The position numbers and the translations under genes are program-made. The notes under the pieces are model-generated. The model did not search any database. It saw only the letters and a program-made list of their open reading frames with translations, and was not told where the DNA came from. Of a DNA stretch of 64,000 bases, positions 9,498 to 56,111 are shown one piece after another. The DNA is from Octopus vulgaris. Its lineage: Eukaryota. The stretch is taken from the NCBI GenBank assembly GCA_951406725.2, contig OX597838.1, positions 15,934,001 through 15,998,000 on the forward strand, in the 5' to 3' direction. The number at the start of each line of letters is the position of its first letter. The first letter of the stretch is position 1.

Positions 9498-9692
9498 ACT
9501 ATTGAAGTTACTGCTGTTACCGTTGTTGTTGTTGTTATTGCTGTTACTGTTGTTTTTGCTTTTGTTTTTGATGTTCGTGTTGCTGTTGCCGTTGTTCTTG
9601 GTGTTGTCAATGTACGTCTCTACAGTCTGCATATACGATGGGCTTGACACTTCTATGCACGTGTGCATGTATGAATGCGTATATGTCGGCAT

Positions 9693-10109
9693 ATACTCTT
9701 TTACTCTTTTACTTGTTTCAGTCATTTGACTGCGGCCATGCTGGAGCACCGCCTTAAGTCGAGCAAATCGACCCCGGGACTTATTCTTTGTAAGCCCAGT
9801 ACTTATTCTATCAGTCTCTCTCTGCCGAACGCTAAGTTACGGGGACGTAAACACACCAGCATCGGTTGTCAAGCAATGCTAAGGGGACAAACGCACACAC
9901 ACAAACACATACACACACACACATATATATATATATACATATATACGACAGGCTTCTTTAAGTTTCCGTCTACCAAATCCACTCACAAGGCATTGGTCGG
10001 CTCGGGGCTATAGCAGAAGACACTTGCCCAAGATGCCACGCAGTGGGACTGAACCCAGAACCATGTGGCTGGTTAGCAAGCTACTTACCACACAGCCACT
10101 CCTGCGCCT
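9693..10109 (-). mobile_element. SINE family A
   Basis: Reverse complement of the 6807-7242 element. Confidence 0.92.
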
Positions 10110-10316
10110 ATGTATATTTTTTCTTTCTTTTTATTTTATTTGTTTCAATCATTAGACTGCAGCCATGTTGGGGCGCCTCTTTGAGGAATCCTTTGTCGAA
10201 TAAATCGACTCAAGTACTTGCCTTTTTGCTTAAAGCTTCGTACTTATTCTGCCGTTCGTTTTTCGTCGAGCGATTACGTAAACATACCAATACAGGCTGT
10301 CAAGCTGTGGTGGGTA

Positions 10317-10361
<45 letters not shown>

Positions 10362-10908
10362 ATTAAATTTATCCGGATGAATACGTCTTCGTCCTTTAAT
10401 AGGGATTTTTTGCCATAGATTTTTAATGCCTTTTCATCATACGTTATTTACGAGTTTTTAAATCGTATAGGTATGAATGTATGTACACAAATACTCAATA
10501 TCAGTCTTAATTTATTAAACAAAGTTCAATAAATTCCATCAAATAAATGAAATGAAGCAGATTGGATGTTCAAATGGATTAGCCTTTTCTTTCATAATCT
10601 AAAAACAGCTGGATAAATTTAAAAGAAAGAAACTTACGAAATACATGCAAACTCGTATAAAGATGTATTTAAAGGGAACCACTTACGTGATTGTGTTAAG
10701 ATGTAATATAATTTGTCGTAAATTGTAAATGATGAATTTACAACTTTTCTGCTTGAAACGAAAGAATACCATAAAATAATTTCCTTTGGCATACATGCAT
10801 ACACACATACAGACACTCTCCCCACCTCTTTCTCTCTCTCTTTCTCAAACATGAAAGTGCTGGGTAGACGAGGTGGATGAAGAGGCATTGAGTGTTTCGT
10901 TAAGAAAA

Positions 10909-11312
10909 ATTAAACTTTAATAACAATAAATCTCTGAACGAGGTATAAACAGTAACTGCACGACAATGTGAGGTATACTTGCCATCTAAATGTGGCTTAC
11001 CAGTAAGGGTGGGTGTTACTGTAGCTTGTAGCCCCAGGAGATATAAGTATTTGCATTGGGACCCCTTTCATCGAAAACCGGTGATTGTCGTACGCTGATG
11101 ACAGGTCAATACCTAGAAACTGCAGTCCGTGCGTATCACTTAGGTTGACGAGGGAAGGGTGACCTCCCTTTGCAAATACCATAAGGGCGCAGAAAGTGTG
11201 CCTAAAGCCAGCTGGAGACGATGTTCTCCTGGGGCTATAAGCTACAGTAACACCCACCCTTAGTGGTTAGCCATATTGAGATGGCAAGTATACCTCACAT
11301 TAAACTTTAATA
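10909..11312 (+). mobile_element. Hammerhead-containing rod-shaped element (retrozyme-like), about 390 nt
   Basis: 77-bp inverted arms 10965-11041/11225-11301 (5 differences), further internal pairing, HHR at the apex, and 14-bp direct repeat ATTAAACTTTAATA at 10909-10922 and 11299-11312. Confidence 0.75.
11081..11139 (+). ncRNA. Type I hammerhead ribozyme
   Basis: gtgat-tgt-cgtacg-CTGATGA(11095-11101)-c-aggt-caat-acct-a-GAAA-C-TGCA-GTC^(11127)-cgtgcg-t-atcac. Full conserved core, GUC triplet, palindromic helix III ACTGCAGT, bulged stem I. Confidence 0.85.
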
Positions 11313-11727
11313 TATATATATATATATTTCCCAGATTCTTAATCTCTGCATTTTTTTACGAGGATAAAAAAAAAATCGAAAGAAATTACAAATTAAGAAA
11401 TTTCGGTGGGGACGGGGAGAAATTGAAATTTTGAAAACGTGATTTCTGGGCAAAATCGTATTGACCCCCTTTTATACGATGAAGCAAAACATTGTTTGTG
11501 ATCCTTCTTAAGAACAGAGAGCACTTTCATGCAAACCCATGGAAATTGCACCCTCCCCTCCTTCACTTTTAAACAAACAATAACTACCATTACGCCAGTA
11601 ATCCAGTACACTATATATCACCTGTGCCGATTCTGCCCATAAGAAAGGAACAAAAAAATACAATGTGGTTGTAGGTCATAACACTCAGGCAACGCCGGGA
11701 TGCATTGCCAGTGTGTGTGTGTGTATG

Positions 11728-16799: not shown

Positions 16800-18110
16800 T
16801 GCTCTTTCCGAAAGTTCTCCGGAAAAGAGCGGCTAGATGATCTTCTTCGACGCCCAAGGTCTCTCCAAGTACGTCGTTGCACTTTTCCTCTGCTAATCAT
16901 CTATAAAAGGCTGCAGTGGACGTTCCATCTATCGCAGTATCCGATTGGCTGAGGGCTGTGAGCGCTTGAAGACATTCCACTTTCCACATGCTCCCCCTCG
17001 GTCTCTATTTTACCCAGGACTGCAGCTCTGTTAAATAAACTAGCTGCGGAAATACGTATCTGGCGAACGCTGACCACGCTTGTTCACCGTCAAGGAAGCA
17101 CTGGATATGTCGTAGCCTTTGCGCATATCTGTGCAACAACCACGGCTTGCCCAGGCCACCACTCAGGCAACCGACAGCAGATAGACCACCTGACCAACGA
17201 GACGAGTCTCTTCCACAAGAAGTGGAAGAGTATATGCTCTAGCATTATCAGACGGTGGCCAGGACAAGGCACGATGGTCAAGCGATAGTAAATGACGGAC
17301 GCAAAATACGCGTTAGCCACATCTGTCCGACCTTTCAGGGATAGCTTTCTCTCAGCTCATTTCTGGGTGAGAGTAGTCACCCTGCTCGTTACCTCGTCCC
17401 AGTTTTTGTCCATCTGAAGGTCTGGACCGAACCAGACCCCAAGCAATTTAACCGGTCCCTCCGTCCAGCGCCCAACGCCCAACGACGCAGTTGGACGGTA
17501 TGGACTTGCTTCTCCAGGTGCCGAGCCGCAAGCCCATTGATTTTTCCTGGTTAATTCATCGCTCTTGAAACCGCCGCGTAGTCCCTGAGAGCGGTGCCGA
17601 TAATTTCTATGTGTTTATGATCCGACACCACTACGGTGACGTCGTTGGCATTTGCCGACACGCATCTCCAATATCCTAGGTCATGCGGGATGCTTCTAAA
17701 CGCCTCCAGTTTGGGTAGTAGCTCGGGAGTCAGTACATACAAGAGAGACGAGAGGGAGCAACCTTGCCAGATCGTGCCAGGTTCTTTAGCCACATTCTCA
17801 ATGATGTATCGCGTGAGTTGGAAGTTGTCGTAGATGGATCTTTTCAGGATGGCAGATGTCTGTGCCTCCCCTACCAGATTCCCGACGTCAAGCGCCAACC
17901 TCGTAGCTAACACCTTGGTAAAAATTTTGAACTCTGCATTCAGCAGAGTTATGGGCCTAAAGTTGTCAATACAACCCACCCTTGTTCGGATCTTTTCTCA
18001 GCAACGCCACCGCTCCTCGGCTCACAAAACTGGGAATTCTCCCATTCTGTTGCCAGTTGCAGTAAACATTTACTAAGAGGTCGCCGAACAGGTCTGGCAT
18101 GTATGCGTAA
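16800..18110 (-). pseudogene. Decayed L1/Tx1-clade LINE reverse transcriptase
   Basis: NFRPITLLNAEFKIFTKVLATRL..EAQT..RSIYDN; QGCSLSSLLY (QGCPLSP motif); ANANDVT (degenerate YADD); GRWTEGPVKLLGVWFG. Internal deletion and stops. Confidence 0.85.
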
Positions 18111-55440: not shown

Positions 55441-55649
55441 CTCATCATCCTCATTTTCTCCATCGTAACGACACGATGTAACGTGCTTGACACAACAACC
55501 GGATCAAGTCTTAAGGTCATTACACGCTTTGGACCAAGATAGAAAAACAAATGGCGCAATCAAGAAAGAATTGCAAGCGCATTGTGAGCAGCAATGTATA
55601 ACAACATCTGATAGCCCGATCGATACAGTGACATATATATAATCACTTA

Positions 55650-55850
55650 TGCTTTGCAACCCTCTCCCTTAAAGTTAAATCCATTTGTAAGCTTTTCTTT
55701 AAAGTTTTAAACTCCAATTTTCCACCACACCATAAATATTACCGTATCTTTAACAAATCTTTTATTAAAGTCTCCTACTCCACCATGCCTAATTTAAGCT
55801 CCATAATTGGCTCCTCTAATAGACGCAAACTTCACCACCTCACGGTAGAC
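55650..55850 (+). pseudogene. Penelope-like element RT C-terminal/linker fragment
   Basis: Open frame [45 protein letters not shown] matches the PLE motif FP..H....IFN....KVSYS.MPN...II. Confidence 0.75.
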
Positions 55851-56111
55851 CCTACGAACTATTCCACTGAACCCCACCCCAACGTACATGGTAGCAATAA
55901 TGCAACCCTTAGAAACCGTACCCGATTCAATAATCCTTTCTACTATAGGAAAATTGACTTTCATTTTGTTCTTGAATTTGCCTATATATATGTATATATA
56001 TATGCATATATATATATATATGCATATGCAAATTATATATATATATATATGTGTATGTGTGTGTGTGTGTGTGTTTGTGTGTATGTATGTGAGTGTATGT
56101 GTAACATATTT

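What the first reader, a model, noticed from the sequence alone, without database searches (positions are those of the whole stretch)
10909..11312. Viroid-like rod with a hammerhead ribozyme at its tip: candidate octopus retrozyme / integrated circular RNA
Seen: what looks like a MITE (77-bp inverted arms 10965-11041/11225-11301; 5 differences, 2 of them G-U pairs on the plus strand) keeps pairing inward (GTATTTGCA 11047-55 with TGCAAATAC 11171-79; GTGAT with ATCAC; CGTACG with CGTGCG). It ends in a complete type I hammerhead: CUGAUGA, GAAA, GUC^ at 11127, palindromic helix III ACUGCAGU, and a stem I bulge that could contact loop II. The unit is asymmetric: 42 extra nt (10923-10964) lie outside the left arm, and a 14-bp direct repeat ATTAAACTTTAATA spaced 390 nt apart bounds the whole. 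Known: metazoan non-LTR retrozymes are repeats of a few hundred nt with type I HHRs that yield structured circRNAs, and palindromic helix III typifies Penelope-associated and dimeric HHRs. Inference: joining the two direct repeats gives a 390-nt circle in which the extra 42 nt close the far end of the rod, so this may be a circularly permuted cDNA of a rod-shaped circRNA rather than a DNA transposon. Caveats: the 10.1-11.1 pair is C-A, so this copy may be weakened, and the 14-mer may be a plain TSD.
Basis: partly seen in the sequence, partly recalled or inferred. Interest (0 to 1): 0.9.

Follow-up and report, generated by a model that had tools for sequence, protein, structure and literature searches.

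The report
Hammerhead retrozyme with Penelope-type inversion
The 'rod' is one back-to-back double insertion of a common 354-base repeat that carries a conserved hammerhead ribozyme motif and was likely pasted in by Penelope-type enzymes, and a separate jumping gene inserts again and again at one spot just in front of that motif.

Summary
The locus is one insertion of a dispersed, ORF-less repeat with a 351-355-nt tandem unit and a type I hammerhead (at least 428 exact core matches). The window holds an inverted 120-nt copy joined head-to-head to a 262-nt direct copy; 49 nt of the unit are missing. The 77-bp arms are the overlap of the two copies, the 42 extra nt are a Penelope-type 'tail', and the 14-mer is a target duplication. 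Copies end at two fixed sites about 43 nt apart. Of 44 inverted insertions, 30 use one site at each end and none uses the same site twice under strict windows. Hammerhead helices covary across subfamilies; cleavage and circles are untested, and no autonomous partner was found. Beyond the brief: an L1/Tx1-like LINE inserts at one 14-bp site directly before the hammerhead, and relatives target the same position in other hammerhead repeats here. The scan noted Tx1 targeting of hammerhead-bearing Penelope ends before, in other genomes. Verdict: non-LTR retrozyme with a Penelope insertion signature and a site-specific LINE parasite.

The parts
10909..10922 (+). Left copy of the 14-bp target-site duplication (last base shared with the element end)
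   Evidence: other insertions carry different 8-15-bp duplications
10922..10964 (-). Tail: the 43 nt that follow end site 1 in the unit, here inverted; its outer end is end site 2
   Evidence: unit positions m1-m43; in tandem copies this sequence follows CCTCACATT directly
10965..11041 (-). Rest of the inverted, 5'-truncated copy (m278-m354); forms the left arm of the apparent rod
11040..11041 (.). Head-to-head junction, 2-nt overlap (GA) between the inverted and direct copies
   Evidence: segments overlap at L001 1641-1642
11040..11301 (+). Direct, 5'-truncated copy of the unit (m93-m354), 97% identical to the reference natural copy L022; ends at end site 1 (CACATT)
11070..11083 (+). 14-bp site (ATCGAAAACCGGTG) duplicated when the L1/Tx1-like LINE inserts into other copies; empty in this copy
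11081..11139 (+). Type I hammerhead: outer stem 11081-85/11135-39, stem I 11089-94/11128-33, CUGAUGA 11095-11101, stem II 11102-05/11112-15 with C-A at its base, GAAA 11116-19, palindromic helix III 11119-26, predicted cleavage after C11127
   Evidence: cleavage not tested
11299..11312 (+). Right copy of the target-site duplication (first 3 nt, ATT, shared with the element end), followed by a (TA)n run

Best explanation
The locus is one head-to-head double insertion of a 354-nt hammerhead-bearing tandem repeat (a non-LTR retrozyme), likely made by a Penelope-like reverse transcriptase/endonuclease acting in trans. Shown: the unit, its tandem and inverted copies, two fixed 3' end sites about 43 nt apart, one site at each outer end of inverted insertions, AT-rich target duplications, and covarying hammerhead helices. 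Inferred: the enzyme nicks both strands of an AT-rich target about 14 bp apart; one nick primes cDNA at site 1 and the other at site 2 on an uncleaved multi-unit (or re-ligated) RNA; the two truncated cDNAs are joined through a short overlap. That gives arms equal to their overlap and a tail on one side only. The hammerhead likely works weakly and as a dimer, and its cleavage would not be needed for insertion. An L1/Tx1-like LINE uses the repeat as its insertion target, directly 5' of the hammerhead, and leaves the hammerhead whole on its 3' side.
For: Family size: 3545 first-look candidates; 428 exact matches to a 33-nt core pattern, 0 for the reversed control. Unit: 354-nt period in L022 and L017; 351 and 355 between neighbouring cores. 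Ends: of 80 distinct loci, 36 are direct (23 end at site 1, 11 at site 2, 2 at m61/m63) and 44 inverted (30 site 1 + site 2, 0 with the same site twice, 14 with one end outside the strict windows). Among the 24 inverted loci from the two searches not shaped like the window, 12 are strictly mixed and 0 strictly same; in a third, partly overlapping sample, 11 of 14 mixed and 0 same. Inner junctions are scattered over the whole unit. This matches the published Penelope anatomy: an inverted 5'-truncated copy at the 5' end and a 30-40-bp tail often at one end only (PMC8557442, passages; PMC3846280, passages), and two internal RT start sites bounding the tail, with ATT cleavage on both strands (PMC11167929, parts 1-2 of 4). 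Template: 27 of 30 copies picked by a pattern 3' of the cleavage site run more than 15 nt through it. Hammerhead: N7 takes all four bases while most core positions are 94-100% fixed; 8 of 20 pairs change on both sides, 0/500 shuffles reach that; C3-G8 swaps to U-A or U-G; helix III stays palindromic in four forms in 45 of 55 distinct cores. LINE.
Against: No autonomous Penelope with a matching terminal repeat was found: 39 loci of two RT + GIY-YIG families showed only nested repeat copies, so the mobilising enzyme is inferred from end structure alone. The tail (about 42-47 nt) is a little longer than the published 30-40. Looser windows give one possible site 2/site 2 locus (L104) and one possible site 1/site 1 locus (L114). 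Rfam does not recognise the hammerhead, U4 is C in 13 of 69 copies, and the G10.1-C11.1 pair is lost in the young subfamilies. The shuffle control does not correct for relatedness, and the 25 rows were hand-picked for diversity from 55 cores. No array longer than about 2.1 units was seen (752 nt, L041).
Confidence: 0.82

Rival explanations
1. Same element and enzyme, but the template is a self-cleaved and re-ligated 354-nt circle copied by rolling reverse transcription, as proposed for retrozymes. This can coexist with the best reading.
For: Copies cross the cleavage site (27 of 30) and many exceed one unit (22 of 36 direct copies, inflated by the junction query). Natural units fold well as circles (z -5.6, -5.2, -2.8). 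Coral, mussel and axolotl retrozymes accumulate as circles (PMC7229834, passages and section 14).
Against: One circle would give identical laps. Tandem units within one insertion differ at 138 of 905 subfamily-diagnostic cells (220 expected for unrelated copies), and 17 of 37 pairs differ at 3 or more; L005 joins two different hammerhead subfamilies. That fits linear read-through of mixed arrays or jumps between RNAs. Later mutation accounts for part of the differences.
Confidence: 0.3
2. One reading: a circularly permuted cDNA of a 390-nt rod-shaped, viroid-like circular RNA.
For: The locus does fold into a long hairpin (-205.5 kcal/mol as a 390-nt circle).
Against: The 14-mer is locus-specific; no other locus among 80 shares this inversion point; 49 nt of the unit are missing; ends are fixed, not permuted.
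Confidence: 0.02
3. The repeat is a SINE-like element moved by the L1/Tx1-like LINE, and the inversion is ordinary LINE twin priming.
For: The LINE is physically tied to the repeat and also makes 14-bp duplications. L1 twin priming makes 5' inversions (recalled).
Against: The LINE inserts almost only at the hammerhead site, while the repeat lands in varied AT-rich and (TA)n sites. The repeat has no poly(A) end. Both outer ends sit at fixed internal sites and the two arms overlap, which L1 twin priming, as I recall it, does not give.
Confidence: 0.06
4. A MITE or foldback DNA transposon with 77-bp terminal inverted repeats.
For: 77-bp inverted arms at this locus.
Against: Arm length varies, 36 of 80 loci have no inversion, copies are 5'-truncated and tandem, and duplications vary from 8 to 15 bp.
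Confidence: 0.01

Closest known systems
Metazoan non-LTR retrozymes (Cervera and de la Pena 2020, PMC7229834; mussel repeats of about 350-390 bp)
   Same: ORF-less tandem unit of 351-355 nt, 43-44% GC, type I hammerhead with short palindromic helix III, duplications longer than 4 bp, self-paired unit.
   Different: C-A at 10.1-11.1 in young subfamilies and U3-A8/U3-G8 in older ones; mostly dispersed 1-2-unit insertions, about half inverted; circles and cleavage not shown. Searches for octopus with hammerhead or retrozyme listed no paper describing it.
Penelope-like elements with pseudo-LTRs, inverted 5' copy and tail (PMC8557442, PMC3846280, PMC11167929); retrozymes as non-autonomous PLE derivatives (bioRxiv 10.64898/2026.07.22.740005)
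   Same: Head-to-head inversion, tail on one end, two fixed 3' sites, AT-rich and microsatellite targets, hammerhead in the repeat.
   Different: No ORF and no matching autonomous element found. The one-site-per-end pairing is counted here; the passages read say only that the tail is often at one end, and PMC11167929 saw no strand difference in start site in vitro.
Target-specific Tx1-clade LINEs (Tx1L in Tx1D, Keno in U2, Tx1-Mar in Mariner-N4; PMC4494074, passages)
   Same: ORF1 with a CCHC-type knuckle, ORF2 with AP endonuclease, RT and zf-RVT; insertion at one site of another repeat; tandem piling at the site.
   Different: The target is the sequence 5' of a hammerhead in several diverged retrozyme families. 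Searches listed no paper with this target; Repbase was not available. Placement in Tx1 rather than L1 was not tested by a tree.
Viroids and viroid-like rod-shaped circular RNAs
   Same: Hammerhead motif; a long hairpin at this one locus.
   Different: The rod is a DNA-level inversion that differs per locus; the heritable unit is branched and genome-encoded.

Membership tests
Non-LTR retrozyme | Type I hammerhead in the repeat unit | tested here: met
   (motif, free N7, covariation); Rfam gave no hit; base of stem II is non-canonical in young subfamilies
Non-LTR retrozyme | Tandem unit of 150-450 bp, under 50% GC, duplications longer than 4 bp | tested here: met
   351-355 nt; GC 0.43-0.44; duplications of 8-15 bp at non-microsatellite sites; longest run seen 752 nt
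Non-LTR retrozyme | Highly self-paired unit | tested here: met
   three natural units as circles: z -5.6, -5.2, -2.8; 57-64% paired
Non-LTR retrozyme | Self-cleavage in vitro | not testable with these tools
   needs transcription assay
Non-LTR retrozyme | Accumulates as circular RNA | not testable with these tools
   only assembled contigs of runs guessed to be RNA were on offer
Non-autonomous Penelope-like element | Inverted 5'-truncated copy at the 5' end | tested here: met
   44 of 80 loci (enriched by the query); 14 of 29 loci in a pattern-picked sample
Non-autonomous Penelope-like element | Optional tail between two fixed 3' sites | tested here: met
   sites at m344-m3 and m38-m50; 34 of 36 direct copies end at one of them; tail about 42-47 nt
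Non-autonomous Penelope-like element | Homology to the pseudo-LTR of an autonomous element | tested here: inconclusive
   none in 39 loci of two families; 15,926 first-look candidates exist and other clades were not sampled (one search failed)
MITE | Fixed terminal inverted repeats and fixed short duplication | tested here: not met
Integrated viroid-like circle | Copies are circular permutations of one rod-shaped unit | tested here: not met
   fixed ends, locus-specific inversion points
Integrated viroid-like circle | Ribozyme in both polarities of the unit | not tested
   no dedicated antisense ribozyme search beyond Rfam
Target-specific Tx1-clade LINE (the inserted element) | Two ORFs; ORF2 with AP endonuclease, RT, zinc finger | tested here: met
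   best solved relative is LINE-1 ORF2, E 1.7e-57
Target-specific Tx1-clade LINE (the inserted element) | Independent insertions at one target site | tested here: met
   13 of 19 hand-paired ends share 14 or more identical nt; five variants of the 14-mer are each copied on both sides
Target-specific Tx1-clade LINE (the inserted element) | RT groups with Tx1 rather than L1 in a tree | not tested
   no named Tx1 reference among the 120 listed hits

The most novel reading that the evidence does not exclude
A three-layer parasite system. Penelope enzymes insert the retrozyme by double priming, one protomer at each of two RNA start sites, and the palindromic hammerhead helix III may pair two RNA units to hold both templates. 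A LINE lineage has tracked hammerhead repeats as they diverged and inserts just 5' of the ribozyme, so that it is transcribed inside retrozyme RNA, has its 3' end cut by the host hammerhead, and is sometimes carried along by the Penelope machinery.
Probability: 0.3. Interest if true: 0.75.

Novelty: new variant of a known kind. Interest (0 to 1): 0.5.

Why it matters
The element itself is a new member of a known class. Two things go further. First, hundreds of short copies with countable ends make the open question of how Penelope elements form inverted repeats with a one-sided tail directly testable: the one-site-per-end pattern predicts double priming at two RNA sites, which the existing in vitro Penelope assay could test. 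It is also structural evidence, independent of sequence homology, that animal retrozymes move by Penelope machinery. Second, a LINE lineage that inserts just 5' of hammerheads in several diverged repeat families adds a ribozyme-bearing retroelement to the known LINE targets. The locus is also a caution: Penelope-type inversions mimic both MITEs and viroid-like rods.

Tried and rejected
Rfam scans at E<=10 found no hammerhead family. Sequencing runs: no RNA holder listed; 20 of 24 rows hold part of the unit, under four organism labels. Contigs of four runs laid on 10840-11400 cover the element but not its flanks in the three guessed-RNA runs, and the listed joints include none from 11298 back to 10909; contigs cannot show strand, ends or absence, so this is no evidence either way. 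Autonomous partner: a Penelope-like RT + GIY-YIG fragment beside L051 led to two families (64% identical proteins) whose ends do not match the unit. A 71% match beside a Penelope ORF in L129 proved to be a second retrozyme family. A Pfam accession for a Penelope domain was not in the library, and the search with the window's own Penelope-like fragment failed. The idea that the LINE is the repeat's autonomous parent was rejected: it is flanked by a duplication of host sequence. A-to-I editing as the cause of the arm differences was rejected: the four left-arm changes are not A-to-G on either strand's sense reading of the unit. The lowest-energy fold of the hammerhead keeps stem I but pairs the core GAU with GUC; I take this as uninformative on activity. 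The 91 of 132 segments crossing the cleavage site were discounted as biased by the queries and replaced. Ten duplicate or segmental-twin loci were dropped from 90 before the counts.

Full report
Observation. The genome is 2.8 Gb in 227 contigs. The nearest named relative of a LINE protein found below is from Argonauta hians, which fits a cephalopod; the species is not established here.

The unit. The stretch belongs to a dispersed family (3545 first-look candidates, 40 scored; 428 exact matches to a 33-nt hammerhead pattern, 0 for the control). Other loci show the sequence running on past window 11301 into the reverse complement of 10922-10964, then through 49 nt the window lacks, then back into 11040. 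The period is 354 nt in L022 and L017, and 351 or 355 between neighbouring cores. Numbering the natural L022 unit so that m354 is window 11301, the window is an inverted copy m278-m43 joined by a 2-nt overlap to a direct copy m93-m354. The arms are the stretch copied twice. The inward pairing near the hammerhead is real structure of the unit (z -4.15), and three natural units fold as branched circles, 57-64% paired. The 14-mer is a target duplication: other loci carry other 8-15-mers, and many sit in (TA)n runs where no length can be read.

The ends. After dropping 10 duplicate or twin loci from 90, 80 remain. Of 36 direct insertions, 23 end at site 1 (m344-m3), 11 at site 2 (m38-m50) and 2 at m61/m63. 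Of 44 inverted insertions, 30 have site 1 at one end and site 2 at the other, none has the same site twice, and 14 have one end outside the windows. Two of the 14 are cut by the LINE described below, four are mixed under looser windows, and L104 and L114 could be same-site cases. The first search used the window's shape and favours mixed ends. The 24 inverted loci do not have that bias and give 12 mixed, 0 same. A third sample, overlapping by 10 loci, gives 11 of 14 mixed and 0 same. Inner junctions are spread across the unit. Inverted arms resemble each other more than unrelated copies do (122 of 1103 diagnostic cells differ, 297 expected), so both arms mostly come from one source; gene conversion could add to this.

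Mechanism. Penelope-like elements are described with an inverted 5'-truncated copy at the 5' end and a 30-40-bp tail often at one end only (PMC8557442, passages; PMC3846280, passages). A purified lizard Penelope protein cuts both strands at ATT and starts reverse transcription at two internal RNA sites that bound the tail, and hammerhead cleavage is not needed for insertion (PMC11167929, parts 1-2 of 4). The window's duplication begins with ATT on the plus strand and reads TATT from its other end on the minus strand. I infer double priming: each nick primes at one of the two sites, and the truncated products are joined. A search for Penelope with twin priming, inverted and tail listed one unrelated review (listing only). 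Of 30 copies picked by a pattern 3' of the cleavage site, 27 run more than 15 nt through it and 1 breaks near it at an internal deletion, so cleaved linear monomers are not the main template. Tandem units inside one insertion often differ at diagnostic sites (138 of 905; 17 of 37 pairs at 3 or more), which favours mixed multi-unit transcripts or jumps between RNAs over one rolling circle without excluding circles. The enzyme was not identified: two RT + GIY-YIG families show no matching terminal repeat in 39 loci.

The hammerhead. In 69 copies N7 is T 29, C 14, G 13, A 13, while most core positions are 94-100% fixed; U4 is C in 13. Among 55 distinct cores, C3-G8 alternates with U-G and U-A (38, 7, 7; 3 C-A), 10.1-11.1 is C-A in 40 and G-C in 11, and helix III is a palindrome in 45, as CTGCAG, CTATAG, CCGCGG or CTAG. 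On 25 hand-picked rows, 94.8% of cells pair, 8 of 20 pairs change on both sides, 0 of 500 shuffles reach this, and slid controls fall to 22-51% (relatedness is not corrected). The older subfamilies combine U3-A8 or U3-G8 with the canonical G-C, and the young ones combine C3-G8 with C-A, so each lineage seems to carry one weakening change (inference). U3-A8 cores, palindromic helix III and weak dimeric cleavage are reported for Penelope hammerheads (PMC4209133, parts 1-2 of 4), and a mismatch at the base of stem II for an axolotl retrozyme (PMC7229834, passages). Rfam did not match. Activity is untested; only 1 of 9 predicted Xenopus retrozyme dimers cleaved in vitro (bioRxiv 10.64898/2026.07.22.740005, parts 1-3 of 5).

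The LINE. Two loci left the unit at the same base and ran into a 5.3-kb element with ORF1 and an ORF2 of AP endonuclease, RT and zf-RVT, closest in PDB to LINE-1 ORF2. Of 30 5' junctions, 28 follow the repeat directly and 2 follow another LINE's 3' end plus the same site. Of 30 3' junctions, 28 continue into the repeat, one into a different hammerhead repeat and one into the site alone. Both queries held 24-34 nt of repeat, which may favour such hits. In 19 ends paired by hand by position, 13 share 14 or more identical nt, and five variants of the 14-mer are each copied on both sides; one pair (L138/L170) differs at a variant base. LINE ends are 94-98% alike while their hosts are 74-95% like the reference, so these are separate insertions into existing repeats. 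The site is window 11070-11083, ending 11 nt before the core. A second hammerhead repeat (357-nt period, 1726 candidates, 66-74% alike in its 3' part) is broken at the matching place in 8 of 25 loci, by elements whose ORF1 is 23-56% identical where a match was found. In 19 related LINE copies picked by an internal ORF2 piece alone, 10 show a recognisable 3' end and 9 of those have a hammerhead-like core just after it, in at least three further sequence types; 3 more are followed by family-2-like sequence, and 6 show no 3' end. Tx1-clade LINEs are known to target other transposons, U2 genes and microsatellites (PMC4494074, passages). Searches for Tx1 with hammerhead, Penelope or retrozyme listed no paper on this target. 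Two earlier, unchecked notes of this scan report Tx1 elements at hammerhead-bearing Penelope ends in other genomes (read after my own result). Repbase and all supplements were not seen and may already hold these families.

Verdict. The locus is not a viroid-like circle and not a MITE. It works like a non-autonomous Penelope element and meets every retrozyme feature testable here. Alone it is a new member of a known kind; the counted end pairing and the hammerhead-adjacent LINE target raise it to a new variant. Interest 0.5.

Noticed in passing
L131:596-5911 (G000:C10:80674395-80679710); target equals window 11070-11083: Near full-length L1/Tx1-like LINE inserted at one site 5' of the hammerhead; 227 and 188 first-look candidates for its two junctions.
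   Followed up: yes
L192-L216 (for example L195, G000:C9:114.54 Mb): Second hammerhead repeat family, 357-nt period, with tandem and inverted copies; 8 of 25 loci are broken at the matching site by other LINE-like elements.
   Followed up: partly
L227, L230, L232, L234, L235, L238, L241, L184; L231; L236: At least three more hammerhead-like repeat types seen only as LINE 3' flanks; units not defined.
   Followed up: no
L130 (G000:C12:44.849-44.855 Mb) and L168: L130 holds a LINE lacking its 3' end, joined to the repeat at m290, inside site 1 and site 2 ends; L168 has an inverted copy of repeat plus LINE 3' end. Possible co-mobilisation of LINE and repeat, or later rearrangement.
   Followed up: partly
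L243 (G000:C1:11168400-11169270): Array of about seven 119-nt pieces of the unit's 3' part plus tail, behind an inverted site 1 copy.
   Followed up: partly
L192:1724-1733 (G000:C14:50.244 Mb): A family-2 repeat breaks at the LINE target position but continues into a 5'-truncated Penelope-like ORF; chance or link unresolved.
   Followed up: no
L121 (G000:C6:66.16 Mb): Long Penelope-like element, 811-aa open frame with RT and GIY-YIG-type end, 855-bp terminal repeat, no hammerhead found by my scan.
   Followed up: partly
window 55632-55979 and 17378-18058: A fragment that looks Penelope-like (recalled motif; no Pfam or PDB hit) and two pieces 72% like the LINE ORF2 region.
   Followed up: no
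window 9676-9874 and 10103-10305: Two 70-80% alike copies of another short repeat, about 430 nt apart.
   Followed up: no
L139 (G000:C1:68.83 Mb): 1.1-kb internally deleted LINE copy that keeps both ends at the target site.
   Followed up: no
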